Source of the DNA: an uncultured Gammaproteobacteria bacterium | GTDB lineage: Bacteria > Pseudomonadota > Gammaproteobacteria > CAWCPV01 | Reading direction: 5' to 3' | Assembly (NCBI GenBank): GCA_963797555.1 | Contig: CAWCPV010000014.1 | Location: 1-64,000, forward strand | Length of the DNA: 64,000 nucleotides | Shown: positions 1,644 through 26,769 of the stretch, in pieces | Numbering within the stretch: the first letter of the stretch is position 1 | Layout: the number at the start of each line of letters is the position of its first letter | Notes under the pieces: generated by a model | What the model saw: the letters and a program-made list of their open reading frames with translations, nothing else | Databases searched by the model: none | Told to the model about the DNA's origin: nothing | Made by a program: the position numbers and the translations under genes

Positions 1644-2465
1644 GGAACACCCCCCCGTGACGGTGTCTGCGTTGGGCCGGCATCCGCGGGCGCCATCGGC
1701 CCAGGAGCACGGGGCACAGGCCATCCAGCGCGGGCCGGTACGCGATGCGCCGATGGTCGCGGCGGAGTCGTCGCCGAATCGTATCATGACGGGGGAGAGT
1801 GGAGATCATCCGAGGATGCCAATCGGGGCGCGGCTCGTTCCGCGGGGCGGGTGCGAAGGCACTGGTGTTTGTGAGCGACCGCATGGCGGATTCGAAGACC
1901 GTCCAAGGGGGCGCCGCCCCGGCGCTGCTCAGGCTTGGACGGTCAGTTCCTAGCCCTCTTCCGCACTCCGGCGCCGGTTCGGTTCAGACTCAGGCAAGGG
2001 GTTGTCCTGGGTGGCGGGCGACGGGCCGTCAGCCTCAGATCATGGCACTTGGGGCCAATACGCAGCAAAACCTGGCCGCCCGGAGGCGGCGAAAGGAACG
2101 GGGGGAGACAGACGATGACCGCTCACCTATGGGCAGTGTTCGGGCTGATACTGGGTTTGTTCCCCGGCGGCGTGAACAAGCATGGCGGTGCTGGTCGGCT
2201 CTATGGTCGCCGGGCTCATGGCGCGGCCAAGCGGCGGGCTCCATGGCGGCGGCCGGCTACATCCCGGGACTCCTGCCGCGGGCTGCTTTCACCGCGGTGA
2301 GACACGGGGTGGCTCTGGCGGCCGCCCTGGCGGGCCTGGAGGTGACGACGTGCGTGTTGGCCGAGGAGACGGCAGCCCACGGCGCCCCGCTCACGCTCGT
2401 CGCGCAGGCTCCGACAGCGCGGTACCGCGGACGCTGCCGCGGAAGCGGATGAACTGAACCGCGAA

Positions 2466-3140
2466 GTGGTCACACTGTATCGACGCGGACGCTATGCCGA
2501 GGCCATTGTGCTGGCCGAGAAGGTGGTTGCCCTCCGAGAGCAGGCCCTCGGCCCCGAGCATCCGGACACCTCTACGAGCTTCAACTACCTGGCGGAGCTG
2601 TACCGAGCGATGGGCGCCTATGCCAAGGCCGAGCCGCTCTTGCAGCGGGCGCTCGGGATTGTCGCCGGAGGCACTGTGGCACGCCCAGGCGAGTCTCGCG
2701 GCCATCGCCGCCGGCCAGCAGCGCCCCTCCGAGGCCATCTCTATGGCAAGGCGGTCAACACCATCCAGGGCCTGCGCGGTCAGGCCGCCTCACTCGACAA
2801 GGCGTTGCAGAGGTCCTTCCTCGCAGACAAGGCCGCCGTCTATCGCACGGTAGCTGAGCGGTTGTCCTCCCAATCCCGCTACGCCGAAGCCCTGGAGACC
2901 TTGCTCCTGCTCAAGCAAGACGAGCACAGGGAGTATCTGGTGGACCTGGGCGACGCGCTGCGCGACCAGGTCACCTTCACCGGGTCTGAGATCGAATGGA
3001 ACGGAGCATACCAGGACGTGGTGGCGCGCTTGGCCCCGATCCGCGCCGAGGAGAGTCCGAACCTCACTGGTCGGCTCCGGCGGGAAGAGGCTAGCGTTGC
3101 TTGCTCCTGCCTACTCCCTCCGCTTGGTTCTGAGCTATAA
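2466..3140 (+). pseudogene. Remnant of a TPR (kinesin-light-chain-like)/CHAT-associated protein
   Basis: LYRRGRYAEAIVLAEKVVALREQALGPEHPDTSTSFNYLAELYRAMGAYAKAEPLLQRAL is a KLC-type TPR. It is followed by a collapsed pre-CHAT segment, with no catalytic domain. Confidence 0.6.
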
Positions 3141-3310
3141 AGAAACGGTGGAAATCCCGGTTCCATCTGAGGCGAAGCCGCACGATCCGCTGGGCGAGGG
3201 CGGCGCGCATACGGCCTCGTTGTGGTGGTTTGAGAACCCGATAACCCGAGGGGGCGGTCATGAGGGCAGATATCCGGATCACCTGTGCATCTTGCCGTTT
3301 GCGAGCGGAA

Positions 3311-3449
3311 CCTAACCGGTCATGGCGATCTTCGCCGCCCCAGAACATGAAAACGTTTGTCACGCCATGGCCGGTTTCCCTCACCCCCAGCCCTCTCCCG
3401 CCAGCGGGCGAGGGGGACTTTGAGGCGCCTTCGGCGCATTTTCACGTTA
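3311..3449. repeat. About 140-bp dispersed REP/MITE-like element, copy 1
   Basis: Near-identical inverted copy at 42065-42202. Internal palindromic core CCCTCACCCCCAGCCCTCTCCCGCCAGCGGGCGAGGGG. Confidence 0.85.
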
Positions 3450-3454
3450 ACACG

Positions 3455-5530
3455 TTGCGCAATAGACGCGACCAGAAGGCCAAGGGGCTAGCCTTCCGGC
3501 TATGGTTGACGCCGTTGCTGGTCTTCTCGATAGGTTTGCCCGCGGCCGCCGGCGAAGACCCCCACGCCCTGCAGCAGCGAGCGATGGGGCGCATCGACGC
3601 CTACGTCGACCATTTCCGCCGGACGTTCGATTCCACCGCTTTGCAGCACGAGCGCGAGCGCGCCGAGGGCGAACTCAAGGAGAGCATCCGGCTGTTTCGG
3701 GCGCGCGGGCAGCTCGGTCCCGCGGCCTACTCGATGGTCAAGCTAGGTGATCTCTACCAATTCGGCGATCGGTGGGATGCCGCCATCGAAATGTATGGGC
3801 AGGCATTGCAAGCGGCCCGGCAGGGCAAGGACCCCCGTTCGGAGTGCAAGGCCCTGCTCGGGCAAGCGCGTTCCTTTATCTACGGGAAGCGTGAGACAGA
3901 CCGCGCCTTGGCTCCCATTGAGCAGGCCGTCCAGCTCGGCAAGGGGATGGACGAGCAGACTTGTCTCTTCGACGCCCTCGATCTCCAGGCGCAAACCGAG
4001 ATAGCGCAGGGAGACCTGATTGCGGCGGCGGACTCGCTCAACCGCGCCTTCTCGGTTGCCGGCAGGATCCAGGACGACAAGGTCCTGTTCTACGGCTATC
4101 TCGATCGTGCCGACATGTATCAGAAGCTGGCCGAGCGGTGCGACTTCGAGAGGGTTTTTCAACCCTGTTTGGAGGCCCTTGGCCACGCAAGGAAGGACTA
4201 CCAGGCGGCGCTTGCGTTGGCGCAGAAGCTCGGCTGGATCGGGCTTGCCGGGCAGGTGCAGGGCTTTCTCCGTCGCCTGGGGGTGCGCGAGGAAATGATC
4301 CGCTCTCAGCAACGCTTTCACCGAACTCTGACGCAAAGCGGCATTTTCGCGCCGCGACGCGCAGGCGACGTATTGGTGAACGAGCAGTTCGCCACGGGTG
4401 AGAACCCGCAGATGTCGGGCCTATTGGCCTGGATCGAGCGCGAAGGCGGTATTCCGGCGGGGACCGATCCGCGGGGTGCGTATGTGCAGGGTCTGATGCA
4501 CGAGATGGGGGGAGAAAGCGATGAGGCGCTCAAGTGGTACCTTCGTTCGGTGGATCTGCTGGAACACGACCGCAGCTTGTTGCGGGCCGAGCAGGCGCGT
4601 GGGAGCTTTCTGGAGGACAAGGTCGAGTTCTATTACACGGCCATGCTTCATCTGCTGGATCGCGGGCGCGTCGAGGAAGCTTTCGCGCTGATGGAGCAAT
4701 CGCGCGCCAGGGTCATGGCAGACCTGCTCGCGACCAAGAAACTCGCGCTTTCAGACCCTGGGCAGCGCGAGCTTTACGCATCGGCCTTGGCGCTTCGTGC
4801 CCAGATCGCCCAGCAGCAACAGCGCTTATTCAGCCTGCGCAACGCCGCTGGGGCCGGAACCTCCACCGATTCGGCAGCGGGAGCCGATGGCGGCCATGTC
4901 GAGCGGGGGAAGGTCCTATATCTGTCGGGTGCAAGTGCCGCGGAGCTGGAAAGGGATCTCGCGCGGCTGGAAGAGGGTTACCAAAAGGTCATGTCGCGCA
5001 TCCGTGAACAAGCGCCGCAGCTCGCGCACTTGGTCAGCTCGGAGCCGGTGTCCCTCGATCAGGTGCAGAAGATTCTGGCGGCAGATCGCAGCGACCTGCT
5101 CGCCTATCTGACGCTGGAGAGTCAGGTCGTGCTTTGGCACATCGGCCCCCACGGTGTGCATGTGCGTTCCGTCTTTCTGCCCCGTTCGGAGCTACAGCAC
5201 GAGGTCGCTTCGCTTCGCGAGAGTCTGGTCGACCCGACGCGCCCATTCAATCAGCGCCTCGCCCGTGAGCTCTACCTTTATCTGGTGGAGCCCGCGATGA
5301 AATGGGTCGAAAGCGATCACCTCGTGATCGTCCCGCACGAGGACCTCAACTACATACCTTTTCAGGTCCTGCTCACCAGCACGGAGCCGGAGCAGTTTCT
5401 CGGCGAGCGCTACGAGATTACCTACGCGCCGAGCGCGACGGTGCTGACGGCGCTTCCGCCGCCCCGTCCCGTCAAGGCGGAGCGGATGCTGGCGATTGCC
5501 AATCCGTCGGGTTCACTCCTCTGCTCATGA
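3455..5530 (+). CDS. Exported TPR + CHAT-domain protein, C-terminally truncated
   Basis: Signal-like leader (LWLTPLLVFSIGLPAAAG), TPR-like helices, and EAFALMEQSRAR, LYLYLVEP, LVIVPHEDLNYIPFQVL, ITYAPSATVL. The ORF stops at LAIANP, before the CHAT catalytic His/Cys. The TTG start is approximate. Confidence 0.75.
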   Translation: MRNRRDQKAKGLAFRLWLTPLLVFSIGLPAAAGEDPHALQQRAMGRIDAYVDHFRRTFDSTALQHERERAEGELKESIRLFRARGQLGPAAYSMVKLGDLYQFGDRWDAAIEMYGQALQAARQGKDPRSECKALLGQARSFIYGKRETDRALAPIEQAVQLGKGMDEQTCLFDALDLQAQTEIAQGDLIAAADSLNRAFSVAGRIQDDKVLFYGYLDRADMYQKLAERCDFERVFQPCLEALGHARKDYQAALALAQKLGWIGLAGQVQGFLRRLGVREEMIRSQQRFHRTLTQSGIFAPRRAGDVLVNEQFATGENPQMSGLLAWIEREGGIPAGTDPRGAYVQGLMHEMGGESDEALKWYLRSVDLLEHDRSLLRAEQARGSFLEDKVEFYYTAMLHLLDRGRVEEAFALMEQSRARVMADLLATKKLALSDPGQRELYASALALRAQIAQQQQRLFSLRNAAGAGTSTDSAAGADGGHVERGKVLYLSGASAAELERDLARLEEGYQKVMSRIREQAPQLAHLVSSEPVSLDQVQKILAADRSDLLAYLTLESQVVLWHIGPHGVHVRSVFLPRSELQHEVASLRESLVDPTRPFNQRLARELYLYLVEPAMKWVESDHLVIVPHEDLNYIPFQVLLTSTEPEQFLGERYEITYAPSATVLTALPPPRPVKAERMLAIANPSGSLLCS

Positions 5531-5725: not shown

Positions 5726-5795
5726 TCCAAGGGGGCTCCGCCCCCTTGGAACCCCCGCAAAGGGTAAGAGCGCAAAGAGCAAAGGCTAAGGGGTC
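5726..5795 (-). promoter_or_regulatory. DGR IMH and downstream hairpin of VR1
   Basis: About 70 bp 3' of VR1, shared with the VR2 flank but absent after TR. Contains the perfect 11-bp stem TCCAAGGGGGC-GGA-GCCCCCTTGGA (5726-5750). Confidence 0.85.
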
Positions 5796-7520
5796 CTCGC
5801 CAGACGGAAGCCGAGGTTGACGTCCCGGTAGCCGGGCGTGGTCCCGGCCCGGCTCGCGGAGCGCACGCCGCGCGGCTCGCCGTCCCATGACCCGCCCCGG
5901 TCCACACGGGGACCGCCGTCCCCTGTGCCGGCGCAACGCTCCTCGCCTCCAGCGTACTTCTCATCGTAGGCGGAGCAGGTCCACTCCCACACGTTGCCCA
6001 GCATGTCGTAGAGTCCGAAGCCGTTGGGCTGGAACCGCCCCACCGGCGCCGCTGCCGCGATGCCGTCATCACAGTCATGGGTCTCCTTGTCGAACTGGAA
6101 GGCCGCTTTCGTCGTGCGGTCGTATACGTTCGCATACCGGCACGCCTGGCTCGGGTCGTCGCTCCAAAAGCGCGCGGTCTGCGTCCCCGCCCGCGCCGCA
6201 TACTCCCACTCGGCTTCCGTGGGCAACCGGAAGCGCTGCCCCGTCTTCCGCGAGAGCCAGTCGGCATAGGCTACGGCATCGTTCCAACTCACCTCGACCA
6301 CCGGCTGGTCGTCGCTGTTCAAGGAGTGGCCCTTGTAATCACCACTGTAGTGGTCCGGCTTGAACTTGCGATACTGCCCGTTCGTCACCTCGTACTTGCC
6401 CATCCACAAGGCATCGACGCAGACCTCGTGTTGCTTCTCGTCGTCGGCCCGCTCGCTCTCCGTGGGCGGGCTGCCCATCTGAAAGCAGCCGCGCGGGACC
6501 CAGACGAATGACATGCCCGTCGTCGGCTCGGTCCAGGTTGCCCCCACCTTTGGAGTAGCGGCAGCGGGCGCGGGGGCGAGGCCGGTCGGCTCGCCCCCGC
6601 GCGGCTGGACAGCCCCGGGGGGTGGCTTCTGCACGGTCCTCGGGATTGGTGCCGCCCCCACCCGGAACACGAAGTCCCCGCGCGCGAGCAGGTAGTCCGC
6701 TATCTTGCCGTACTGAGGGTTCTGCCGCGCATACTGCGGCACCACCCGCTGCAGGTACAGACCCAATTCGGTACCGGTCACGTAGCCGTCCTGGTCGAGG
6801 TCTGCCAGTCCCCGCCCGATGGCATCGACGAAGGCCGGCGCGAACACGCTCTGCGCCGGCACGGTCTGGTTCGCCTTGCCCGCGGTGATGAACTCCCGCA
6901 CCGGCTCGGCCGTGAGATCCGAGATGTGCGGCGGCACCTCCGGCAGATCGCGGGCAGCGAACACGCTCCCGGAGAAGCAGCTATCGAACAGGAACAGCAC
7001 GTGCTTGGCCTCGATTTCCCGCGCCCAGGTGAGCACCTGGTTCATGCTCACGGCCTTGCCGAGGAAACCGTCCCGGTCCTGGCGCGGGTCGGGGGCATCG
7101 GCCGGCACGATGTAGCCCATCTCCTCGCCGTAGCCACGCTCCAGGGTGTGCCCGTGGCCGGAGAAGTAGATGAGGAGCCGGTTGTCCTTGGCAAAGCCGA
7201 AGCGGTTGATGAAGTCCGCAATGGCCTTGCGGAGGTCCTCTGCCTTGAGGTCGCGGCGCTTGGTCACCTGAAAGCCCTGCGCCTGCAGCATCGCTTCGAC
7301 CTTGTCCAGCTCCCGCGGCACGGCGGTGAGGTCCGGCCAGCCGGCGGTGTAGAGGCTTTCCCCGATGAGCAGCGCGTGGCTCTCGCGATACAGCCCGACC
7401 GCTCTGCCCGAGGGGTTCGTGAACAGCACCCGCCCCCGGGAGGCCGCTCGCTGCCGACGCCACGAGCCCCAGCAGCCCTAGACAGAGCAACGCCAGCGCC
7501 CGAGTCCGCCTCCCCTTCAT
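5786..7520 (-). CDS. DGR target 1: signal peptide + caspase-family (C14) protease + FGE-sulfatase/CLec domain; frameshift near 7435
   Basis: Leader MKGRRTRALALLCLGLLGLVASAAS. Caspase dyad YFSGHG / FDSCFSG. FGE motifs FQMGSP, YEVTNGQY, RLPTEAEWEYAARAG, GLYDMLGNVWEW, RGGSW, GFRLAR. VR at the 3' end. Confidence 0.9.
5796..5920 (-). repeat. DGR variable repeat VR1
   Basis: 125-bp ungapped match to TR. By hand count, 16 mismatches fall at TR adenines and 1 at a non-adenine (position 5849). Confidence 0.95.
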
Positions 7521-7622
7521 TGCATTCTCCCTGACTGTTCGGACCGCTGTTCGGACTCGCCCCGTTCCCATCTTACCTTGGCCTGCACCGACCATGCCGC
7601 TGCGGGGACCCGCCGGTCGAGA

Positions 7623-7803
7623 GGGAGCGGGGCCTTCGGTCGCCCTACCAGCCCCGCTCCCGATCGTCCCTGACAGCGCTATTCGGCGCTCCCCTCCGTG
7701 CGAGGCCGGGAAGCGGACGCCATGGACACCCGCGCACCACACCCGACGCGTCCGTGGAGGCGCCGGCTCGGGGCGTGCTGTCGCAAGACAGCGCGCGGGC
7801 GGA
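7623..7803 (-). ncRNA. Putative structured 3' spacer of the DGR template RNA
   Basis: Intergenic region 3' of TR, with hairpins GCTGTC-TTGC-GACAGC (7777-7792) and GGGAGCGGGGC-17nt-GCCCCGCTCCC (7623-7661). Function is inferred from known DGR RNA architecture. Confidence 0.5.
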
Positions 7804-7928
7804 CTCGCCAGACGGAAGCCGAGGTTGTTGTTCCGGTTGTCGGGCGTGTTCCTGTTGCGGTTCGCGGAGCGCACGTTGCGCGGCTCGTTGTTCCATGACC
7901 CGCCCCGGTTCACACGGGGACCGCCGTC
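7804..7928 (-). repeat. DGR template repeat (TR)
   Basis: In the target frame it reads DGGPRVNRGGSWNNEPRNVRSANRNRNTPDNRNNNLGFRLA, with 11 AAC codons. It matches VR1 and VR2 almost entirely except at adenines, and overlaps the RT 3' end. Confidence 0.95.
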
Positions 7929-8996
7929 GGGTCCGCTCCCCGTGTAAAGCATACCTCTGCGAACATAGCTCGACGCAACCCCCAGGTGTCGGCGTGCCGG
8001 GCATGACCGATCCAGCTCTGGACGCGGGGGTCTATGTCTCCCCAGTCCGCACGGCCCCCGGCGTATGCCCGTGCGAGCCGCCGCAGCCGGCGGCGAAATC
8101 GGAAGCCGTTTTGGCTGCGCAGCCGTCGCCGCTCGGGGAGCACGAAATAACCCAACAGGTCGAGCCCGTCACGCACCGCGAGTCATGTGTGCCTTGTTCG
8201 GGTGCAGCTTCAGCCTGTCGCGAGCGAGGTGCTCCGCCACGGCTTCGCGCACCTCCCGCAGGCGCCCCTTGTCGTTGTCCAGGGCCACCATGTCGTCGAC
8301 GTAACGGAGGTATGCGCGGACCCGCAGCACCTCCTTGACTTGGCGGTCCAGGTCGTCCAGGTACAGGTTGGCAAAGAACTGGCTGGTGAGGTTGCCGATG
8401 GGAATGCCGGTGCGGCGCTCGATGGGCGTGAGCAGGTCGTCCCCGGGAAAGTAGACTGTCTCCCCGCCGACCGCTTCAGGACCCGTATCGATGATGCGCG
8501 CGAGCAGATCCAGCACCCGGGCATCCTTGATTCGCCGGGCTAGCTTCTCCTTGAGAAGTGCGTGGTCGATGGAGGCGAAATACTGCTGCACGTCCATCTT
8601 GAGGGCATATACATAGCCGCGCGCCCAGCCCTGGTATCGGTCCACTGCGGCATGCACCCCCTTGCCCTTGCGACAGGCGTAAGAGTCGTGGATGAAGGTG
8701 CGGTCGAGCGCAGGCTCGATGACGTTCATCACCGCATGATGCACGACGCGGTCGCGGAACGGCGCCGCGGCGATGAGCCTCGGCTTGCGCTCGTAGATCG
8801 TGAACAGCCGATACCCGCCCGGCCGGTACTCACCGCTCTCGAGCGCACGCTGCAGGCCGAGCAACTCGTGTTCCAGGTCCAGCGCGAACGCCGCCACCTG
8901 GCCCGATCGCCCCTTGCCGCGCCTCGCCCGGCGGTAGGCCAGCAGCAAATTCTCGAAGCTCACCACCTGCGGCCACAGACCGCCCAGGCGCCTCAT
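7910..8996 (-). CDS. DGR reverse transcriptase; frameshift near 8175
   Basis: Motifs ERKPRLIAAAPFRDRVVHHA, SYACRKGKGVHAA, LKMDVQQYFASIDH, GIPIGNLTSQFFANLYL (DGR-type SQ) and YLRYVDD. The C-terminus (GLDLLGY..SWIGHARHADT) is in ORF 7910..8176. The ATG overlaps the avd stop (ATGA). Confidence 0.92.
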
Positions 8997-9352
8997 GGCT
9001 CTTGTCTCGACCGCAGCCATCCCCCGATTTGCCGCCCCAGGTTTTCCATCAAGCCCGCACCGTGCTCGTAGCGCTTGAGCGGCATCACCTGAAGCTCGTA
9101 CGCGAGCCTCCACAGATGGCGTGTGACCTCGAGCCTGAGGTTCGCGCGCCGCAGGGGGCCTTCCTTCTGGCGGCTGTAGGCGGCTTCCACCAATGCTTCC
9201 AGCACCTCCAGACAGCCCGCTTCGAGCCGCTCGCCCAGCGTAAAGCGCCGCGAGCGCGGCAACTTGTCGAGCTGAGGGATGAGCCATCCCAGCAAGTCAT
9301 GGCAGGCCTGCACGGCATGTGGCGGCGTCGGCGGCGGTGCTCTCTCTCCCAT
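8993..9352 (-). CDS. avd: DGR accessory variability determinant Avd (four-helix bundle)
   Basis: About 119 aa and basic. Motifs KLPRSRRFTLGERL, ANLRLEVTRHLWRLAYEL and LGRQIGGWL. GGAGG RBS, translationally coupled to the RT. Confidence 0.9.
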   Translation of the reverse strand: MGERAPPPTPPHAVQACHDLLGWLIPQLDKLPRSRRFTLGERLEAGCLEVLEALVEAAYSRQKEGPLRRANLRLEVTRHLWRLAYELQVMPLKRYEHGAGLMENLGRQIGGWLRSRQEP

Positions 9353-9423
9353 GTCCGCCTCCATCGATGAGCCTTGCGGGGGGGTCGGCCCATCGCAAGG
9401 GCCCCTCAGCGCGCGGAGAACGA

Positions 9424-9491
9424 CCAAGGGGGCTCCGCCCCCTTGGAACCCCGCAAAGGGTAACAGCACAAAGCACAAAGGCTAAGGGGTC
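9424..9491 (-). promoter_or_regulatory. DGR IMH and downstream hairpin of VR2
   Basis: Near-copy of 5726-5795, with hairpin CCAAGGGGGC-GGA-GCCCCCTTGG at 9424-9446. Confidence 0.85.
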
Positions 9492-11278
9492 CTCGCCAGA
9501 CGGAAGCCGAGGTTGAGTGTACCGGGCGTCGGGCGTGCTCCTGTAGCGGGTCGCGGAGCGCACGAAGCGCGGCTCGTCGCCCCATGACCCGCCCCGGTTC
9601 ACACGGGGACCGCCGTCTCCCTTTCGAACGCAGCGCCGCTCAGCACCAGCGTACTTCGTCTCATACGCCGAGCAGGTCCACTCCCACACGTTGCCCAACA
9701 TGTCGTAGAGCCCGAAGCCGTTCGGCCGGAAGCGCCCCGCCGACGCAGTGTAGACATACCCGTCGGTGCAGTCGTGAATCGCCCAGTCTGGGTACGTCTC
9801 CTTCGCCGTCCGGTCGGCCACGTTGGCGTAGCGGCACGCCTCGCTCGAATCATCGCCCCAAAAGCGCGCAGTCTGCGTCCCCGCCCGCGCCGCATACTCC
9901 CACTGGGCCTCCGTCGGCAGCCGGTAGCCCTTCCCGGTCTCCTTCGACAGCCACTCGGCATAGGCGAGCGCGTCGTTCCAGCTCACACAGGTGACCGGGT
10001 GGTCGTCCCCCTGCGGAAATCCCGGGGAACGCCAGAGCTTGTCCTTGTCGAGCTGCGCTTGCTTGCCATCCCAGTAATAACACCCGCCCCCGGTCTCCGC
10101 CTCGGTGCGGTACCCGGTGGCGTCCACGAAGCGGCGGAATTCGCTCACGGTCACCTCGTAGCGGCCCAGAGCGAAGGCCGCGACCTCGACCTCGTGCACT
10201 GGTCCCTCGTCGTCGTCCCGGCCGGCTTCTCCCGCCGGGCTCCCCATCCGAAAACTCCCCGCCGGAATCATCACCATCTCGGGGCCTTCCGAGCCGTCCT
10301 TCAGCCGGTCGCGAAAGCCGCGGACCGCAGTCTTGGCCGGCTCCCGCGGCGGCGCCTCGGCTGCTCGCCGTTCCTCGAGCGGCGGCGCCGCCTCGGGGGC
10401 CTTAGCCGGGAGCTGCGGAACACCGACCTCGAATACGAAGTCGCCCCTGGACAGCTCGTAGTCGCGGATCTTGCCGAACTGCGGGGTCTGGTCCGCATGC
10501 TGCGGCACCTTGCCCTGCAAGTACACGCCAAGCTCCATGCCGGTGACGAAGCCGTCCCTGTCCAGATCGCCCAGGCGATAACGCAGGGCATCGACGAAGG
10601 CGGGCGTGAAGACGCTGCGCGCCGGCACCGTCTCCCCGGCGCTGCCAGCGGTGATGAACTCGCGCACCGGCTCGGCGGTGAGCCGCGAGATCTGGGGCGG
10701 GCGCTTGGGCAGGTCGCGGGCGGCGAACACGGAGCCCGAGAAGCAGCTATCGAACACGAACAGGGCGTGCTTGGCGTCAATGTCCCGCGCCCACAGCATC
10801 ACCTGCTCCATGCTTACGGCCTTGTCCTTGAAGCCGTTCGGGTCCTTCTCGGGAGAGGGGGCGTCGGCGGGCACGATGTAGCCCATCTCCCGCCCCCACC
10901 CTCGATCGAGCGTGTGCCCGTGGCCTGCGAAGTAGAACAGCAGCCGGTTGTCCGGGGCGCGGCCGTAGCGGTGGATGAACTGCACGAAGGCATCGCGGAG
11001 CTCCTGACCGGTGGGGTTCAGGCGCTTCACCGACCTGGAACCCCTGCTCCTTCAGCGCCGCCTCCAGAAGATCCAGCTCGCGCGGGACGCTCTCGAGGTT
11101 CGGCCAGCCTCGCGTGTAGCGGCTTTCCCCGATGAGCAGCGCGTGACTCTCGCGATAGAGTCCCACCTGCTCGCCCGCGGGGTCTTTGAACAGCACCTGG
11201 CCGCGCGAGGCCGCGGTCAGCCGCTGCGCTGAGGCACCACATGCCGAGCACCGCCGCCCAGCACAACCACCTGTTCAT
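9482..11278 (-). CDS. DGR target 2: signal peptide + caspase-family (C14) protease + FGE-sulfatase/CLec domain; frameshifts near 11200, 11030 and 9516
   Basis: Leader MNRWLCWAAVLGMWCLSAAA with a GGAGGTG RBS. Dyad YFAGHG / FDSCFSG. FGE motifs GPEMVMIPAGSFRMGSP, RLPTEAQWEYAARAG, GLYDMLGNVWEW. Paralog of target 1. Confidence 0.88.
9492..9617 (-). repeat. DGR variable repeat VR2
   Basis: 126 bp against the 125-bp TR. Eleven substitutions, all at TR adenines, plus one AAC codon expanded to ACTC (9515-9518). Confidence 0.95.
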
Positions 11279-12514: not shown

Positions 12515-12939
12515 GAGATCCACCCTGCGCTGCCCAGCGGTGGTCCCCTGGGGATAAGGGCTTGGGTCCTGCGTCTCGCGCACTGTTTGATGTCCTGACA
12601 TGTCAGCCTCCCTATCTGCGCCGCCCTGCGTTGGTGTACAGCGTTTGCCACCGTGCTCAAAGGCTCGGATCTCACGCTCAATATGTCGGGATATGCCGGG
12701 CCGGTGGATCATTTTACTCTGGTGCGGACCTCAGACGCTTGACCGCCCGTTTGCACTTCGGGACTGCGGCTCGCTCTCCAGGAGCCCAACAGGAACCCGC
12801 AGGGTATGGACTACCGCCCGTTCGACCTGGCCGCCCCCGATCCCGGGGCGTGCCAGAAGGCATGGGACGGGGAGGCCACAATGCAAGGCGTGGTCGTCGG
12901 ATCGCTGCTCAACGCTGCGGCCGGGCTGCGCTGCCTGCG

Positions 12940-13425
12940 ATGAAACACCGGGTGCGTTCGGTAGCCGGGCTAGTGGGCGTGTTGGTGACGACTCTGGAGC
13001 TGGCCAGGTGTACCACACCCCGGGTTGCGCCGTCCGGCGTGATCGTACAACCCCTGACCGACGACCGGGAGCACCGCCCTGCGGATGCCGTCGCGGAAGC
13101 CGACCAACTGGACCGGAGGGTTGTCGCACTGTACCGAAGCGGACGCTATGCCGAGGCAATCGTGCGGGCGGAGAAGGCCGTTGCACTGCGCGAGGATCTC
13201 GACCTAGTCTGCCTGCTCACCACGACGCTGCGCGATGCACCAATGTATCGGCTGACCATCCAGCGTACTGCAACCAACGGGTTGCACGCTGAGTCTCAGA
13301 TCATGGTCGACAAGGTCTTCGCCTTGCAACGCGACGGATGCGGCCCCGTGTTCGGCCATCTCGATCAGGACATGATGGTGGCGCTCAACCGGACGTTCGC
13401 ACTGGTCATGGGGATGGCGGATTGA
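12940..13425 (+). pseudogene. Chimera of a TPR-protein 5' fragment and a mazF 3' half
   Basis: LYRSGRYAEAIVRAEKAVALRE (similar to ORF 2466) is joined in frame at about 13205 to LVCLLTTTLRDAPMYRL..LVMGMAD (a copy of the mazF at 18830). Confidence 0.75.
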
Positions 13426-13557
13426 CGAAGGGGAACCGGTCGCAGCCTACGCCACAGGCGCCTACAGCTATCGCGAGATCGCCCAGCACTTCGGCCTCCA
13501 CCCGGCGACCGTGGGGCGGATCGTGCGCAGGCGAATGCTTGCAAGCGAGAACTGACC
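13207..13557 (+). repeat. About 350-bp direct repeat, copy 1 (mazF 3' half + transposase C-terminal HTH remnant)
   Basis: Highly similar to 18938-19288. Confidence 0.9.
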
Positions 13558-17525: not shown

Positions 17526-18385
17526 TCATTGCTGTTGATCGTCCGCGACGACGACCTGGTACGAGTATCCCTGTTCCGTCAGGAAGAGCTTGCGGTGGTG
17601 GGCAAACTCCTCTTCGCGCGTGTCACGCGAGACGAGGTGAAGAAGTGCGCCGCGCGGCCGTCGCCCTTGGGCCGCAGGATGCGACCAAGCCGCTGGGCCT
17701 CTTCCTGGCGTGAACCGAACATGCCCGACACCTGGATGAGCAGGTCGGCGTCCGGGAGGTCGATGGCGAAGTTCCCCACCTTGGAGAGCACGATGCGGTG
17801 CAACTCGTTGCGGCGAAATCGATCGGTCAGATCTGCTCACGTTCGGCCTGCGGTGTCTTGCCCGTGACCAGTGGCGCGTCGAGCTCCTTCGCGATGGCCT
17901 CGACCTGGGCGAGGTATTCGCCGATGATGAGCACCCGACCGTTAGTGTGCTGCTCCAGCAGTCGACGGAGGCGAGACCTCTTGGCCGGGTTCTCGGCGGC
18001 GATCCGGAACTGCGAGCGCCTGTCCGCGAGGGCGTACTGCATCCGGCGCTCCGCACTCATGGCCACACGCTCCTCGACGCAGGCTGCGCTCGCAATCCAG
18101 GCCTGACGTTCGAGGTCCTTCCAGGGGACGTCGAATCGCTTAGGTCCGATCAGGGCGAATACGTCTGCCTCGCGGCCATCTTCTCTAACCAGCGTGGCCG
18201 TGAGCCCCAGTCGCCGGCGCGCTTGCAAGTCGGCAGTCGCGCGGACACCGGAGCCGGCAGCAAGTGGACCTCATCGTAGACGACGAGTCCCCAGGAGCGT
18301 GCCCGGAACAGCTCGAGGTGAGGGAACTCACCGTCGCGATGGGCGCGCCAGGTCAGGATCTGGTAGGTGGTCAGCGTCACAGTGG
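17526..18385 (-). pseudogene. XPB/Ssl2-like SF2 DNA helicase, 5'-truncated fragment with frameshifts
   Basis: [61 protein letters not shown] and [10 protein letters not shown] are spread over several frames. The N-terminal half is absent. Confidence 0.85.
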
Positions 18386-18605: not shown

Positions 18606-18833
18606 ATGCCGCGCCCAGGCACTGATGATGGACTGAACAGGTTCCAGCGATACCGAGCCCGCCGCAAGATGCGGGGGATGAAGCTCATTCGCCTGTGGGT
18701 GCCGGATCCGCTGGCACCCGGCTTCGCCGAGGAAGCGAGCCGTCAAGCGGCACTGCTGCGCGGAGCCCCCGAGGAGAGCGAAGCCCTGGAATTCATCGGG
18801 GCCGCGGGCGACTTCGATGATTGGACGGCGTGA
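18606..18833 (+). CDS. Antitoxin, DUF3018/MazE-like
   Basis: RYRARRKMRGMKLIRLWVPDP..FAEEASRQA. Overlaps the toxin start. Confidence 0.8.
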   Translation: MPRPGTDDGLNRFQRYRARRKMRGMKLIRLWVPDPLAPGFAEEASRQAALLRGAPEESEALEFIGAAGDFDDWTA

Positions 18834-19156
18834 AGCGCGGCGATCTCGTGACCGTCGCTGCACAAGGCGATTATGGGAAGCCGCAGCCGGCTGTGGTCGT
18901 TCAGTCCGACTGGCTTCGAGAGACAGACAGCGTCCTGGTCTGCCTGCTCACCACGACGCTGCGCGATGCACCCATGTATCGGCTGACCGTCCAGCCTACT
19001 GGAACCAACGGGTTGCACGCGGAGTCCCAGATCATGGTCGACAAGATCTTCGCCTTGCGAGGCGACAGATGCGGCCCCGTGTTCGGCCATCTCGATCAGG
19101 ACATGATGTTGGCGCTCAACCGGACGTTGGCACTGGTCATGGGGATGGCGGATTGA
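18830..19156 (+). CDS. mazF: PemK/MazF-family toxin
   Basis: MKRGDLVTVAAQGDYGKPQPAVVVQSD..SQIMVDKI. Confidence 0.88.
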   Translation: MKRGDLVTVAAQGDYGKPQPAVVVQSDWLRETDSVLVCLLTTTLRDAPMYRLTVQPTGTNGLHAESQIMVDKIFALRGDRCGPVFGHLDQDMMLALNRTLALVMGMAD

Positions 19157-22690: not shown

Positions 22691-24221
22691 GGTTGGACCT
22701 GACCCTGGGCTTTCGCGCCGTGGCGCGTCTGATCCCACAGGGGCGGTGCATGATCAGATCCGTCTTCGCGGCGCACGCTACGACGCGGCAGGCGCCGCCG
22801 CTCCTTCGGGTTCGGCGCAAGCTCCGGCCTCGACCGCGAGACGCCGGTCGTCTTCGGCCGAGAAGTGCCAATGCAGGCGGCGGCTCTCCGGTTCTGAGAA
22901 TGACCGACCCTGGCGCCTTTTCCCGCTCCTTTTCCCGCTCCATGTTTCACCGCTGTGATCTCCGGTGCATCTGTCCCTCAAACCACTTGCACACTTCGAA
23001 GATCTCGTCGCGGTCAGAAAATAACTGCGCAAGCAGCAGCAAATATCTTTGCTCAATCCTGAGATCAAAGATTTGACAAGAATCATTTATCGCTTGAGCG
23101 TAGTGTTTACGCGCATGGTCTATGAAGGGGGCCAGCGCGGGCCGGCCGAGCACGGTGACGCTCCCCGACGGGCCGTTGAGCTATGCCTACAACCCGACGA
23201 CCGGCAAGCTCACCCAGGTGACCGCTCCCGATGGAGGAACGCTCGCGTTGACCTATGCCGGATCGCTGCTCACCAACGTCGCCTGGTCAGGCACCTTATC
23301 CGGGCAGGTGGGCTACAGCTACGACAATGACTTCAGGCTCAACTCGGTGACGGTGAATGGGGCGAATCCCATCAGCTTCGGCTACGATGCCGACAGCCTG
23401 CTCACCCAGGCCGGGAGCTTGACGCTCAGCCGCGATGCGCAGAATGGACTCCTCACGGGCTCGACGCTGGGCAACGTCACCGATACCTGGAGCTACGACC
23501 TGTTCGGGGAGCCCGCGAGCTACAGCGCGGCCTCCAGTGGCACAGCGCTGTTCTCTACCAGCTTCACCCGCGACCCGCTCGGGCGCATTACCCAAAAGGT
23601 GGAGACCGTGGGTGGCGTTGCGACCACCTTCGACTACGGCTACGACCTCGCCGGGCGCCTCGTTCAAGTCCAGCAGAACGGCACGGTGGCGGCGAGCTAT
23701 AGCTACGACAGCAACGGCAACCGCCTGAGCCGCACCACGCCCGCAGGCACCGAGACCGGCACCTACGACGATCAGGATCGGCTGCTGACCTACGGCGCCG
23801 CCACTTACACCTATACCGCGAACGGCGAGTTGGCGACCAAGACCACGGGTGGGCAGACCACCAGCTACCAGTACGATGTGCTCGGCAACCTCAAGCATGT
23901 GGGGCTGCCGGGCGGGACCAACATCGACTATGTGATCGACGGCAGTAACCGCCGCATCGGCAAGAAAGTGAACGGCACTCTGGTTCAGGGCTTTCTCTAT
24001 CAGGACAAGCTCAAGCCTATTGCCGAGTTGGATAGTGCCGGTAACGTGGCCAGCCGATTTGTCTATGCAACCCGCGTCAATGTGCCGGATTACATGATCA
24101 AGGGTGGGGCGACCTATCGTATCCTCACCGATCATCTTGGAACCCCGCGCCTCGTGGTCGATACGGCTACCGGTATCATCGTGCAGCGAATGGACTACGA
24201 TGAGTTCGGAAGGGTCATTCT

Positions 24222-25672
24222 GGCTCTTCCCGGAATCGTGTGGGTAGCAATGCCTATGCCGCAGCGGCATCTGCCCGAGCTTTGACACCAGCGGGTGTGT
24301 TGAACGGCGAGGCGGGCAGGTGGGCGAGATTGCCGGCGATGAGGTAGGCGATGGTGATGAGCGAGTGCGTGGTGCGGTAGCCCCGGGCGCGAGCCTTGGC
24401 GGCCTGGATGAGGGAGTTGATGCCCTCGGCGCGGCCGTTGGTGAGGCCCGAGTGGAATGCGGCGAGGATGCCGTTCCAGTGCTCTTTCAGGGTAGTGGCG
24501 AGGCGTTTCATGGGCTGCAGGCGGCTACGCCGTGCCCAGCGATACCAGCGCCCGAGGGCGCTCTCGGCCTGCTCGAGGGTGCTGGCCGTGGCGTAGATAT
24601 CGCGCAGCGCCTCCTTGAGGCGCCAGGCGCGGGAGAGCCAATGGAAGTCGGTGAGCTGGTCCCAGGTCCAGTCGTGGGCGACTTTGAGCCAGGTCCAGCG
24701 GGTGCCTCTGAGGGCGGGCTCGGTCTTGATCTCCTGGCGGCGCACCGCGTCGACCGCCTCGTTGGCGAGCTTGATGACGTGGAAGGCATCGAAGCTCACC
24801 GTAGCCTGAGGCAGATGCTTGGCCACCCCGGCGCGGTAGGCGGCGGACATGTCGATGCACACCTGCTCGATGGCCTGCGGGTCGCCGCCGTGCGCCTTGA
24901 GGTCGGCGGCGAAGGCCGCCACGGTGCTCTGGTCGCGGCCCTCGCAGGCGAACAGCAGGCGTTTTCCCGTGAGGTCATGGAACAGGCTGATGTAGTGCTG
25001 TTCACGCCGGGCAGCGGTCTCGTCCAGGCCCACAGCGCTCACCTGCGAGTGGTCCTCCTGAGCGCGGGCACTGCCTACGTAGTGATCGAGCACCCCCCAC
25101 AGGCGCTCATCGCCCACACCCAGGTGCCGAGCCACGGTCGCCACCGGCATGGCCTGGCACAGCGTGACCACCAGCGCCTCCATCAGCGCCGTGAAGCCAC
25201 TGTGGGCGCGCGCCCACGGCGCTTCGACCTGGGTCGTCTTGCCGCAGGCCTCGCAGCGCACTCGCGGCAGATGCGCGTGCAGGTATGCCCGTGACTTAAA
25301 GAAGCTCAGGTGCTGCCAACTGCGCTCCCGGGTGTCGTGCACCGGCTGGCCTTGCACTCCGCAGGCCGGGCAGGCAAAGCGGCTGCCCTTGGCAAACGCC
25401 ACCTCGAGGTCGATGCGCCCAGCCTCGGGGTCGAACCGCACCTCGGTGACCTCCCAAGGCGCTGTCAGGCCCAGTGCCGTGGTAAACAGATGCGTGGGCT
25501 GCACGGTGCTCCCCCCTTGGATGACGGCCTGTGGATTTGTGGACGAGTCCTGCGGAGCGGCCCCACGCGAGGGCCTCTCGCCCACCACCCCAACCACAAG
25601 ATGCTGTGATAAGCGACCGGTCAGAACAGATGCTACTTGACTACCACCACCCACACAATTGCCGAAAGAGCC
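24222..25672 (-). mobile_element. ISL3-family insertion sequence (1451 bp)
   Basis: Imperfect terminal IRs GGCTCTTCCCGGAATCGTGTGGGT / GGCTCTTTCGGCAATTGTGTGGGT. 8-bp TSD GTCATTCT at 24214-24221 and 25673-25680. Confidence 0.95.
24254..25504 (-). CDS. ISL3-family transposase
   Basis: Zn finger CPAC..CEAC, then VGLDET, CIDMSAAY, FDAFHVIK and TNGRAEGINSLIQ. Confidence 0.92.
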   Translation of the reverse strand: MQPTHLFTTALGLTAPWEVTEVRFDPEAGRIDLEVAFAKGSRFACPACGVQGQPVHDTRERSWQHLSFFKSRAYLHAHLPRVRCEACGKTTQVEAPWARAHSGFTALMEALVVTLCQAMPVATVARHLGVGDERLWGVLDHYVGSARAQEDHSQVSAVGLDETAARREQHYISLFHDLTGKRLLFACEGRDQSTVAAFAADLKAHGGDPQAIEQVCIDMSAAYRAGVAKHLPQATVSFDAFHVIKLANEAVDAVRRQEIKTEPALRGTRWTWLKVAHDWTWDQLTDFHWLSRAWRLKEALRDIYATASTLEQAESALGRWYRWARRSRLQPMKRLATTLKEHWNGILAAFHSGLTNGRAEGINSLIQAAKARARGYRTTHSLITIAYLIAGNLAHLPASPFNTPAGVKARADAAAA

Positions 25673-26769
25673 GTCATTCTGGATACCAATCCGGGATTCC
25701 AGCCCTTTGGATTTGCGGGCGGGTTGTATGACCGGGATACCCAACTCGTGCGGTTTGGGGCACGGGATTATGATGCGGATACGGGAAGGTGGCTGGCGAA
25801 GGATGCGATTTTGTTTGGGGGTGGGGGTGTTAATTTGTACAGCTACAACACTAACGATGCTGTGAACTCATTCGATCCTGATGGGCTTAAAGTTGAGCTT
25901 GGATATAGAGTTCTTATCCCGGGCGCTGCATATCACACTCTACTAATATTAACAGATAGTCGGTCTGGAGATGTCAGAGTTCTTGAGGGAATGCCTGAAC
26001 ACATGATAGCTGGGACAATGGGATATCTTGGCCCTGAGCACACGACCAGATATTATGGATATCTAATCAAGAAACAGGTTACTAATCCCAAAGCAATATC
26101 AAGAAACGATATCGTTACTATCCCAATGCCACCAGGAATGACTGATGCCGAGTTGCAACAGAGGCTTAATGAGAATTATGATTCCTACGCGAATAACGTC
26201 AGCTATGACCCGGTACCTTGGGGAAACAGTGGTAACAGCAATAGCATAATAGGAGATACACTAAGACGATCTGGCTCCAATTTTGCCCCAAATAGGTCAG
26301 CTCCCGGCTGGCAACAGAAACTACCCCACTCGCTACCCAGGGCTATTCAACGCTGCTCACAATAAATGCTCACAATAAATAAGCCAGGGTAGCAAGCGCG
26401 GAACCCGTAGCCTCGATGTAGCGCAGCGGAATGAATCAGCGCGAAGAGAAACAATGGAGAGAAACAATGGGGTCAGACTCCATTTATTCATTTATTGTCC
26501 CGGGCATCCCGCCAAGGGCGCCTCACGCGGCAGGTCTTCCAACGGATCCAGGCGTAGATCCAGGCGTGGTTTCCGGCACCGCCACTGCGGCTGTTGCCCC
26601 TTATAAGTCGCAGCCGCTTGCAATGCGCTGACGCAATCTCCAGCAGGTGTGAGTAGCGGAAAATCCGCTCGCCGCGTTACGCAGAACCCGGGGCTAACCG
26701 CCTCTGGCGATGCGGTGCGCGAGCTAAACCTGTCCTTACCCAATTCGGTGCTGGCTGTGCCCTCAAACC

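What the first reader, a model, noticed from the sequence alone, without database searches (positions are those of the whole stretch)
5726..11278. Complete DGR diversifying two exported caspase-CLec fusion proteins
Seen: avd, a DGR-type RT (SQ and YVDD motifs), a 125-bp TR with 11 AAC codons, and two VRs. VR1 has 16 adenine-site mismatches and 1 non-adenine mismatch; VR2 has 11 adenine-site mismatches plus one expanded AAC. The two patterns differ, so they are independent mutagenic homing outcomes. Both targets combine a signal-peptide-like leader, an intact caspase His/Cys dyad (GHG, DSC), a Pro-rich linker and an FGE-type CLec domain carrying the VR. Known: DGRs mutate TR adenines into VRs on CLec folds; 11 AAC codons allow about 15^11 (roughly 10^13) protein variants. 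Inference: a hypervariable ligand-binding domain is wired to an extracytoplasmic caspase-like protease, making a diversifiable recognise-and-cleave receptor for immunity, self/non-self recognition or prey/host attack. DGR-targeted CLec sensors are reported in multicellular bacteria, but I am not aware of an exported caspase-CLec pair being characterised.
Basis: partly seen in the sequence, partly recalled or inferred. Interest (0 to 1): 0.92.

Follow-up and report, generated by a model that had tools for sequence, protein, structure and literature searches.

The report
DGR diversifying two exported caspase-lectin proteins
This is a genuine diversity-generating retroelement that rewrites the binding tips of two secreted caspase-like proteases, a target type already reported in cyanobacteria, and the gene breaks seen here are probably assembly errors.

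Summary
On the minus strand lie target 2 (T2), avd, a bRT-like reverse transcriptase, a 125-nt TR (29 A, 11 AAC) and target 1 (T1).

- **Variable regions:** VR1 differs from TR at 16 A sites and 1 non-A site. VR2 differs at 12 A sites and has one inserted base. No other cognate VR, and no other copy of the VR-flanking hairpin, occurs in the 5.35-Mb genome.
- **Targets:** Both are Peptidase_C14 + FGE-type C-type lectin (CLec) proteins. Their leaders are in frame only in orthologues.
- **Frame breaks:** As assembled there are five +1 breaks: two in T2's N-terminal part, one in VR2, one in the RT and one in T1. nuoL and other loci carry the same kind of break. Short-read contigs of relatives lack the extra base where they could be checked. 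I read the breaks as assembly errors (about 0.7), not decay.
- **Novelty is modest:** The caspase-FGE architecture is widespread (117 of 120 listed homologues; mostly signal-peptide-bearing). DGR-diversified caspase-FGE targets were published in 2014 and 2020.
- **What is unusual:** The closest RT relatives diversify TIR/STAND-CLec conflict-system proteins, not caspase fusions (2 of 80 loci had any caspase hit, none fused). Eight other caspase-FGE loci had no Avd or RT in the DNA held.

Verdict: a new member of a known kind. The protease mechanism is inferred, not shown.

The parts
9482..11278 (-). Target 2 (T2): signal-peptide-like leader, C14 caspase-like domain, linker, FGE-type CLec domain. 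It has three +1 frame breaks as assembled, near 11203-11217, 11031-11033 and 9517.
   Evidence: Pfam. Three-frame reading. tblastn with orthologue P0008 gives 87-92% identity in three frames. A GGAGGTGA Shine-Dalgarno-like sequence precedes ATG 11278 (sequence).
9492..9617 (-). VR2: 126 nt, with 12 mismatches to TR, all at TR adenines, plus one inserted base that shifts the last ~10 codons.
9424..9446 (-). Hairpin about 46 nt downstream of VR2: 10-bp GC-rich stem with a 3-nt loop.
   Evidence: z -2.71. The motif occurs only at the two VRs in the whole genome.
8993..9364 (-). avd, the accessory variability determinant. Its stop overlaps the RT start (ATGA).
   Evidence: bAvd PF22296 at 1.2e-16. 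Sequence.
7910..8996 (-). DGR reverse transcriptase, about 361 aa if read through, with one +1 break within 8171-8180. Its 3' end overlaps the first 19 nt of TR.
   Evidence: RVT_1. Best solved match is 8ub7 at 8.8e-41 with IGNLTSQ/YVDD aligned. Intact relative L013 aligns at residues 1-271 and 275-360 in two frames.
7804..7928 (-). Template repeat (TR): 125 nt, 29 A, 11 AAC codons. It lies in no long coding frame of its own.
5786..7520 (-). Target 1 (T1): signal-peptide-like leader (ATG 7520), C14 caspase-like domain, Pro/Ala-rich linker, FGE-type CLec domain. It has one +1 break near 7449.
   Evidence: Pfam. Orthologue P0002 (87% identical) has the leader in frame. Short-read contigs of two runs lack one base at 7449.
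5796..5920 (-). VR1: 125 nt, with 16 mismatches at TR adenines and 1 at a non-A.
5727..5749 (-). Hairpin about 46 nt downstream of VR1, the same sequence as at VR2.
   Evidence: z -2.84. The corresponding TR flank shows no such fold (z -0.18).

Best explanation
A chromosomal diversity-generating retroelement of an uncultured gammaproteobacterium, arranged T2-VR2 / avd / RT / TR / T1-VR1. Mechanism of the DGR (established knowledge for the class, not tested here): the TR transcript is reverse-transcribed by the RT-Avd complex with misincorporation opposite adenines. The cDNA then replaces the VR, guided by the conserved 3' end of the VR and the downstream hairpin. This rewrites up to 16 codons (11 of them AAC) on the ligand-binding face of a C-type-lectin fold. 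The two targets are paralogues (about 58% identical) of a large family of Sec-exported proteins. In this family a C14 caspase-like protease with an intact His/Cys dyad is tethered by a Pro/Ala-rich linker to an FGE-type CLec domain that lacks the FGE catalytic cysteines. Inferred function: an extracytoplasmic protease whose binding specificity is reprogrammed by the DGR. Ligand binding by the variable CLec either brings a substrate to the protease or, as I think slightly more likely by analogy with the TIR/STAND-CLec targets of the nearest RT relatives, clusters and so activates the caspase-like domain. The five single-base (+1) frame breaks are most likely consensus errors of the assembly, so the element is probably intact in the organism.
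For: DGR identity: bAvd, RVT_1 and FGE-sulfatase hits. The best solved relative of the RT is 8ub7, with the SQ motif aligned. Mismatches sit almost only at adenines: 16 of 17 in VR1 and 12 of 12 in VR2, p 1.6e-11 and 2.9e-9. Seven other TR-like hits in the genome have 20-30 non-A mismatches each, so they are not cognate VRs. The hairpin is found only at the two VRs. Of the 80 best RT-relative loci, 76 have an Avd hit and 68 an FGE hit, mostly in the same target-avd-RT order. Past activity: T1 and its 87% orthologue P0002 differ at 11 of the 41 VR codons. All 11 lie at the 16 TR codons with A in position 1 or 2, and none at the other 25. Targets: Peptidase_C14 plus FGE-sulfatase in both. 116 of 119 homologues keep [SAG]GHG and 118 of 119 keep D[SAT]C. 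In the alignment to human FGE the catalytic-loop cysteines have no counterpart, and TvpA (2y3c) matches at 2.7e-14. Export: strong Shine-Dalgarno-like sequences precede the leader ATGs. Leaders are in frame in P0002, P0003, P0006, P0007 and P0008. 98 of 113 homologues are signal-like. Breaks as artefact: all 5 are +1, and so are both breaks in nuoL of the same window. Frameshift-like junctions run at 6.5-8.0 per 100 kb on four contigs, against 1.0 in a finished control genome, with a +1 excess of 327 to 176. Other DGR loci of this genome are also split. Completeness is 84.6% for a 20-contig assembly. Short-read contigs of relatives omit one base at 7449 in 2 of 2 covering runs. Contigs across 8059-8396, 10947-11199 and 10933-11235 are shorter than the window by net 1, 1 and 2 letters.
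Against: As assembled, the RT and both targets are broken, and T2's VR carries a frameshifting insertion. That is the pattern a fossil DGR would show. The locus has 5 breaks in 5.8 kb. About 37 kb of domain-complete genes elsewhere in the window show only the two in nuoL, so the locus is enriched for breaks well above its neighbours. The short-read contigs are 93-97.5% identical relatives, not demonstrably the same strain. The exact gap positions at three of the four sites were not listed, and VR2's insertion was not covered. gyrA, uvrA and dnaE on other contigs are intact. My control genome has 54% GC against 65%, which lowers its false-positive rate. No read-level VR polymorphism could be examined, because only contigs were available. 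No signal-peptide predictor was available. Protease activity, ligand and cellular role are untested. Caspase-FGE loci elsewhere showed no Avd or RT in the DNA held (0 of 8). The general function of the family therefore does not need a DGR.
Confidence: 0.75

Rival explanations
1. Fossil DGR: the frame breaks are real. The RT is inactive, T2 is a pseudogene, and T1 has lost its export signal or is translated from GTG 7429. The VRs are frozen records of past homing.
For: Five breaks lie in 5.8 kb, against two in about 37 kb of domain-complete neighbouring genes. The surrounding region is rich in true gene remnants: a truncated CHAT gene, PemK and XPB fragments, a broken ISL3 and a partial amine-oxidase duplicate. 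A Trichodesmium DGR was reported as apparently inactivated (PMC4143802, passage read).
Against: All five breaks are single-base insertions, the same error type seen twice in nuoL and in excess genome-wide. Natural decay would be expected to include deletions and longer indels (general knowledge). No premature stops or substitutions of catalytic motifs are seen. Identity to intact orthologues stays at 87-92% on both sides of each break. Relatives in short-read data lack the extra bases.
Confidence: 0.22
2. Programmed +1 frameshifting or a phase switch: both paralogues place the leader one frame away from the caspase domain at nearly the same codon. Export versus cytoplasmic retention would then be regulated by recoding.
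For: The leader/caspase breaks in T1 (~7449) and T2 (~11203-11217) fall within one or two codons of each other, in front of the shared AASRG motif.
Against: Orthologues P0002 and P0008 are in frame there. Short-read contigs drop the base at 7449. There is no homopolymer or known slippery motif at either site. The same +1 defect also hits the RT, the VR and nuoL.
Confidence: 0.03
3. The C-terminal domain is a working formylglycine-generating enzyme and the protein is a sulfatase-maturation factor, not a binding module.
For: Strong PF03781 match, with human FGE structures as the best solved hits (1.7e-30).
Against: In the HMMER alignment to human FGE, the loop that carries the catalytic cysteine pair (identity of the residues recalled, not from a call) is replaced by GEPR, and the VR contains no cysteine. 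That loop is the part the DGR randomises. The DGR variable protein TvpA also matches (2y3c, 2.7e-14).
Confidence: 0.02

Closest known systems
Trichodesmium erythraeum DGR target Tery_2077 (Pfreundt et al. 2014, PMC4143802; passage read) and orthocaspase-CLec variable proteins of cyanobacterial DGRs (Vallota-Eastman et al. 2020, PMC7517822; passages read)
   Same: A C14 caspase-like N-terminal domain is fused to a C-terminal FGE/DUF323 CLec domain that carries the DGR variable region.
   Different: Those are cyanobacterial, and most are predicted cytosolic (PMC7517822). Here the host is a gammaproteobacterium, both targets of one cassette have this architecture, and the family carries Sec-type leaders. 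None has been characterised biochemically in either case, as far as the passages I read say.
DGRs that diversify putative antigen sensors of conflict systems (Dore et al. 2024, PMC10907252; Kaur et al. 2020, PMC7159879; passages read)
   Same: The nearest RT relatives examined (L009, L013; 74-75% identical RT) have two targets around avd-RT, each an effector or NTPase fused to CLec: TIR-FGE, AAA_35-FGE and nSTAND1-FGE. The same genome holds at least four more such loci. Caspase-like peptidases are named effectors in these systems.
   Different: Here the effector fused to CLec is a caspase-like protease with an export signal and no NTPase. Only 2 of 80 RT-relative loci had any caspase hit, and none was fused to the target. 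Placement in the published RT clades was not tested.
Bordetella phage BPP-1 DGR (Mtd / bAvd / bRT)
   Same: Shared features are a bAvd-like protein, a bRT-like RT (8ub7 E 8.8e-41), adenine-specific TR-to-VR changes, a VR at the C-terminus of a CLec fold, and a GC-rich hairpin downstream of the VR.
   Different: This element is chromosomal, not phage-borne. TR lies downstream of the RT rather than between avd and RT. There are two targets. The CLec is FGE-type (like TvpA, 2y3c) rather than Mtd-type.
Bacterial metacaspase-FGE-sulfatase proteins (Asplund-Samuelsson et al. 2012, PMC3501461; passages read)
   Same: Same two-domain architecture. 117 of the 120 listed homologues carry PF00656 + PF03781.
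   Different: Family members sampled elsewhere showed no Avd or RT in the DNA held (0 of 8 caspase+FGE loci). The 2012 paper interpreted the FGE domain as enzymatic.

Membership tests
Diversity-generating retroelement (DGR) | Reverse transcriptase of the DGR clade (bRT-like, motif-4 SQ) | tested here: met
   RVT_1 at 1.2e-19. Best solved match is 8ub7 at 8.8e-41, with IGNLTSQ aligned to IGSLTSQ and YVDD to YMDD.
Diversity-generating retroelement (DGR) | Accessory Avd gene next to the RT | tested here: met
   PF22296 bAvd at 1.2e-16, 61.5 bits against a cut-off of 40. Its stop overlaps the RT start.
Diversity-generating retroelement (DGR) | TR/VR pair differing almost only at TR adenines | tested here: met
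   VR1 has 16 A and 1 non-A mismatches. VR2 has 12 A and 0 non-A. p = 1.6e-11 and 2.9e-9.
Diversity-generating retroelement (DGR) | VR at the 3' end of a target gene in a CLec fold, followed by a recognition hairpin that is absent from TR | tested here: met
   The VRs are the last 41 codons of FGE-sulfatase domains. A 10-bp hairpin lies 46 nt downstream of both VRs, only there in the genome and not after TR.
Diversity-generating retroelement (DGR) | Open RT and target reading frames (functional element) | tested here: not met
   As assembled there is one +1 break in the RT, one in T1 and three in T2. They are probably assembly errors, but this is not proven for this strain.
Diversity-generating retroelement (DGR) | Ongoing mutagenic homing (adenine-specific VR heterogeneity in reads) | tested here: inconclusive
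   Only assembled contigs of relatives could be laid, and VR positions were not among the rows shown. Indirect support comes from orthologue P0002, which differs from T1 at 11 VR codons, all TR-adenine codons.
Peptidase C14 (caspase / metacaspase / orthocaspase) | Domain match above Pfam's gathering score | tested here: met
   T1 scores 52.3 bits and T2 25.8 bits, against a cut-off of 21.4. There is also a weak match to the MALT1 paracaspase domain, about 1e-4.
Peptidase C14 (caspase / metacaspase / orthocaspase) | Catalytic His and Cys present | tested here: met
   SGHGH / AGHGH and DSCFSG are present in T1 and T2. The same motifs are in 116 and 118 of 119 homologues. That these are the catalytic residues rests on their position in the Pfam match and on recall.
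Peptidase C14 (caspase / metacaspase / orthocaspase) | Proteolytic activity | not testable with these tools
   Needs an enzyme assay.
Formylglycine-generating enzyme (true FGE) | Catalytic cysteine pair in the active-site loop | tested here: not met
   In the alignment to human FGE, the loop ...S/C-H-R-S-Y-C... has no counterpart and the VR has no Cys. The domain is therefore filed as an FGE-type CLec binding domain, not as an enzyme.
Sec-exported protein | N-terminal signal peptide in frame with the mature protein | tested here: inconclusive
   The leaders MKGRRTRALALLCLGLLGLVASAA and MNRWLCWAAVLGMWCLSAAA are out of frame here but in frame in orthologues. 98 of 113 homologues are signal-like by a crude rule. 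SignalP was not available.
Conflict-system DGRs of multicellular bacteria (Dore et al. 2024) | RT clade whose targets are effector/NTPase-CLec sensors | tested here: inconclusive
   2 of 2 close RT-relative loci examined by Pfam (of 80 fetched) have TIR/STAND-FGE targets. No tree was built against the published clades. Multicellularity of this organism is unknown. Its nearest named GyrA relatives are unicellular-type sulfur Gammaproteobacteria at 72-73%.

The most novel reading that the evidence does not exclude
A DGR-reprogrammable protease working outside the cytoplasm. A DGR clade that normally diversifies cytoplasmic TIR/STAND immune sensors would have captured a widespread exported caspase-lectin family. 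This would give the cell a periplasmic or secreted caspase-like enzyme whose trigger or substrate specificity is rewritten by mutagenic retrohoming (about 10^13 variants per target, two targets). It would act as an anticipatory surveillance or attack protease against phage parts, competitors or prey before they reach the cytoplasm.
Probability: 0.3. Interest if true: 0.75.

Novelty: new member of a known kind. Interest (0 to 1): 0.4.

Why it matters
DGR targets that join a hypervariable binding domain directly to an enzyme are natural examples of programmable recognition coupled to catalysis. None of the caspase-CLec type has been studied at the bench, as far as the passages I read show.

This locus, and its intact orthologues P0002 and P0008, offer a compact two-domain exported version that could be expressed and assayed. 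It also shows that an RT lineage otherwise tied to TIR/STAND-CLec conflict systems can serve a protease-CLec family that is usually not DGR-linked. That bears on how DGRs acquire new targets.

The practical lesson for the scan is that frame breaks in this assembly cannot be read as biology without reads.

Tried and rejected
- **Remote VRs:** Seven further TR-like hits in the genome were checked and rejected as cognate VRs, with 20-30 non-A mismatches each. They belong to other DGR loci or FGE paralogues.
- **rpoB and rpoC as frame-integrity probes:** Neither was found in this incomplete genome, so they were uninformative.
- **Close relatives for a gene-by-gene frameshift census:** None exist in the species set; all 20 'relatives' are from other families. 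I used a codon-bias junction scan instead. It caught only 2 of the 7 breaks I knew of in the window, so its counts are relative measures only.
- **Sequencing runs:** The best holders had only 0.26 and 0.23 of the sampled words and are contigs, not reads. They show relatives, not this strain. VR polymorphism, depth and expression cannot be read from them, and I draw no habitat conclusion from the small shares.
- **Metagenome scan with T1:** It returned mostly distant FGE proteins and did not recover the contigs of the close orthologues P0002 and P0008.
- **CHAT gene:** It does not continue past 5530 in any frame.
- **Rfam:** No family matched in the window.
- **Not done:** No structure prediction or complex prediction was run. 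I judged that they would not change the verdict.

Full report
**What is there**

All parts lie on the minus strand of 5727-11278. ORF listing and raw sequence, with Pfam, give this order:
- **T2:** leader ATG at 11278, would-be stop TAG at 9484-9482
- **avd:** 9364-8993, bAvd 1.2e-16
- **Reverse transcriptase:** ATG at 8996, stop at 7910, RVT_1 1.2e-19
- **TR:** 7928-7804
- **T1:** leader ATG at 7520, stop at 5786

The avd stop overlaps the RT start (ATGA), and the RT's last 19 nt overlap the start of TR. The RT's best solved relative is 8ub7 (E 8.8e-41), with IGNLTSQ and YVDD aligned to the corresponding motifs.

T1 matches FGE-sulfatase at 1.1e-53 and Peptidase_C14 at 8.2e-14. T2 matches them at 8.9e-64 and 9.9e-06. 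The two targets are about 58% identical.

**TR and VRs**

TR is 125 nt with 29 adenines and encodes DGGPRVNRGGSWNNEPRNVRSANRNRNTPDNRNNNLGFRLA, with 11 Asn.
- **VR1 (5920-5796):** 17 mismatches to TR, 16 of them at TR adenines.
- **VR2 (9617-9492):** 12 mismatches, all at adenines, plus one inserted base near 9517.

With 29 of 125 positions being A, the chance of such a bias is 1.6e-11 for VR1 and 2.9e-9 for VR2.

Both VRs are followed, 46 nt downstream, by the same 10-bp GC-rich hairpin. It sits inside a ~105-nt flank that is 90-93% conserved between the two targets (z -2.84 and -2.71). The flank of TR has no such fold (z -0.18). The hairpin motif occurs nowhere else in the 5.35-Mb genome.

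Seven other TR-like stretches in the genome have 20-30 non-adenine mismatches and are not targets of this TR. The parts list of a DGR is therefore complete, and this TR has exactly two cognate VRs in the assembly.

**Evidence of past activity**

The closest database homologue of T1, P0002 (87% identical), differs from T1 at 70 of 547 positions. Eleven of these fall in the 41 VR codons. All 11 are at the 16 TR codons with adenine in the first or second position, and none at the other 25. P0008, the T2 orthologue (87-92% identical), likewise differs in the Asn-templated positions. The lineage's DGR has therefore been rewriting these codons since the strains diverged.

**The frame breaks**

As assembled, five single-base (+1) breaks interrupt the element:
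- between leader and caspase domain of T1 (near 7449)
- the same junction of T2 (11203-11217)
- a second break in T2 (near 11032)
- inside VR2 (near 9517)
- in the RT (within 8171-8180)

*For decay.* This is 5 breaks in 5.8 kb. About 37 kb of domain-complete genes elsewhere in the window show only two. The neighbourhood also holds many true remnants.

*For artefact.*
- Every break is a one-base insertion, and both breaks in the complex I gene nuoL of the same window are of that same type.
- A codon-bias scan finds 503 frameshift-like junctions genome-wide, 327 of them +1 and 176 +2.
- That scan gives 6.5-8.0 junctions per 100 kb on four contigs, against 1.0 per 100 kb in 400 kb of a single-contig control genome. 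Two caveats apply: the control has 54% GC, and the scan caught only 2 of 7 known breaks.
- Other DGR loci of the genome are also split.
- The assembly is 84.6% complete in only 20 contigs.
- Identity to intact orthologues is undiminished on both sides of each break.
- Strong Shine-Dalgarno-like sequences sit in front of the leader ATGs, not in front of the internal GTG.

*Short-read contigs of relatives.* I laid contigs from four public runs, 93-97.5% identical to the window.
- One base is left out at 7449 in both runs that cover it.
- The pieces across 8059-8396, 10947-11199 and 10933-11235 are shorter than the window by net 1, 1 and 2 letters. That is what is expected if each extra base is absent. 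The exact gap positions of these three were not listed.
- VR2's insertion was not covered.
- These contigs are relatives, not proven to be the same strain.

gyrA, uvrA and dnaE on other contigs are intact, so errors are not everywhere. On balance I give artefact about 0.7-0.75 and real decay about 0.22.

**What the targets are**

Export signal:
- Homologues P0002, P0003, P0006, P0007, P0008, P0025 and P0037 begin with a hydrophobic leader that runs in frame into ...AASRG-VLF....
- Among the 119 listed homologues, 113 start with M. Of these, 98 pass a crude signal-peptide rule, and several have lipobox-like cysteines.

Protease domain: [SAG]GHG is kept in 116 of 119 homologues and D[SAT]C in 118 of 119.

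Lectin domain:
- It aligns to human FGE (1.7e-30) and to the DGR variable protein TvpA (2y3c, 2.7e-14).
- The FGE loop that carries the catalytic cysteines (identity recalled, not from a call) has no counterpart, and the VR holds no cysteine.
- The domain is therefore a binding module, not an enzyme.

How common the architecture is:
- 7,980 of 7,999 scored candidates matched T1.
- 117 of the 120 listed carry both PF00656 and PF03781.
- Named sources include Parabeggiatoa, Marithrix, Desulfobacterales, Magnetococcales and KSB3.

**Context**

GyrA places the organism among Gammaproteobacteria; the nearest named relatives are 72-73% identical (Thiohalobacter, Thioalkalivibrio, Chromatiales). No genus- or family-level relative exists in the species set.

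The genome holds at least four more DGR-type RT loci. Their targets are TPR-FGE, NACHT-FGE (with a stand-alone C14 gene nearby), nSTAND1-FGE and TIR-nSTAND1-FGE.

The 80 best RT-relative loci (49-77% identical, mostly Nitrospira and Gammaproteobacteria MAGs) show this pattern:
- 76 have an Avd hit and 68 an FGE hit, mostly in the order target-avd-RT, and often with a second FGE gene after the RT.
- Only 2 of 80 have any caspase hit, and neither is fused to a target.
- The two closest loci that I annotated carry AAA_35-FGE, TIR-FGE and nSTAND1-FGE targets.

Conversely, caspase+FGE genes found elsewhere had no Avd or RT in the DNA held:
- 4 of 80 metagenome loci
- 4 of 29 loci from 400 sampled genomes of the class, with flanks of only 1.5 kb

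That is 0 of 8. The tally (35 of 401 genomes with a match) includes two genomes flagged as unpublished, G307 and G140. None of the caspase+FGE loci comes from them.

**How it most likely works**

*Shown.* The anatomy of a DGR, adenine-specific divergence of two VRs, and divergence of orthologues at the templated codons.

*From established knowledge of DGRs.* RT-Avd copies the TR RNA with adenine mutagenesis, and the cDNA replaces the VR using the conserved VR 3' end and the hairpin.

*Inferred.* The exported proteins use the variable CLec face to bind a ligand outside the cytoplasm, and this is coupled to the tethered caspase-like protease.
- **Ligand-induced clustering:** Caspase-type proteases are typically activated by proximity (general knowledge), and this RT lineage otherwise serves TIR/STAND-CLec sensors. 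I therefore favour ligand-induced clustering and activation (about 0.45).
- **Tethered recognise-and-cleave:** about 0.3.
- **Other roles:** the remainder.

Nothing here tests the protease, the ligand or the biological role.

**Comparison with what is known, and novelty**

- Metacaspase-FGE fusions were catalogued in 2012 (33 sequences; PMC3501461, passages).
- A caspase-domain DGR target, Tery_2077, was described in Trichodesmium in 2014 (PMC4143802, passage).
- Orthocaspase-like N-termini in many cyanobacterial variable proteins were described in 2020 (PMC7517822, passages).
- DGR-diversified CLec sensors with fused or adjacent effectors, including caspase-like peptidases and a CHAT+TIR target, and some targets with signal peptides, were described in 2020 and 2024 (PMC7159879 and PMC10907252, passages).
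- My two literature searches found no bench study of such a protein. Supplements of these papers were not read and may list further examples.

This locus is therefore a new member of a known kind. Three features stand out: both targets are exported caspase-CLec paralogues, this target type is rare among the RT's relatives, and the genome is rich in DGRs.

**Verdict**

The 'complete' status depends on reads that I could not see. Interest 0.4.

Noticed in passing
window 30300-32450 (-): The complex I gene nuoL is read in three successive frames, with two +1 breaks near 31396 and 30805. The rest of the nuo operon (27417-41953) gives full-length domain matches. A second nuoG-like gene lies on C4:429655-431949, so this operon may not be the only one.
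   Followed up: partly
G000 C6:61.5-63.7k (L193), C3:47.7-52.4k (L194), C4:372.5-380k (L195), C14:226-230k (L196): There are at least four further DGR-type RT loci in the same 5.35-Mb genome. Their FGE-domain targets are fused to TPR, NACHT, nSTAND1 or TIR-nSTAND1, and a stand-alone Peptidase_C14 gene lies beside the C3 locus. Several of these genes are also split between frames. Avd-like hits next to FGE genes also occur on C7:535k and C20:87k.
   Followed up: partly
window 3260-5530 (+): A TPR-CHAT gene, convergent with T1, ends at CHAT profile position 89 of 289. No frame continues the domain. It stops about 200 nt from the hairpin at the end of the DGR cassette.
   Followed up: partly
window 2411-2540 and 13065-13194: TPR-gene 5' segments, 76% identical, flank the DGR region as direct repeats 10.6 kb apart. 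The second is fused in frame to the C-terminal two-thirds of a PemK/MazF toxin domain (12562-13425). That stretch, 13200-13499, is 94% identical to the intact mazF at 18821-19153.
   Followed up: no
window 17582-18270 (-): A remnant of an ERCC3/XPB-type helicase C-terminal domain is split between two frames (profile 1-97 and 99-164 of 248), with no N-terminal half nearby.
   Followed up: no
window 23104-25867 and 44967-45814: An intact ISL3 transposase (24257-25867, -) abuts and apparently truncates an RHS/YD-repeat gene (23104-24282, +). A second ISL3 transposase is broken into two frames.
   Followed up: no
window 56451-57305 and 58885-60852 (-): There is a partial duplicate of an amine oxidase + cNMP-binding gene. 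The copy has only the last 78 profile positions of the oxidase plus the cNMP domain.
   Followed up: no
window 27417-30326 (-): A 970-codon open frame holds two Proton_antipo_M stretches (nuoM and nuoN?) without an intervening stop. This is either a fusion or another frame artefact.
   Followed up: no
whole genome G000: All 20 'relatives' offered from the species set belong to other families of the same class. rpoB and rpoC were not found in the assembly.
   Followed up: partly
L046, L050, L058 (RT-relative loci from other MAGs): FGE or Avd hits are split into adjacent pieces in different frames. This suggests that similar indel errors are common in some other MAG assemblies that hold this DGR type.
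   Followed up: no
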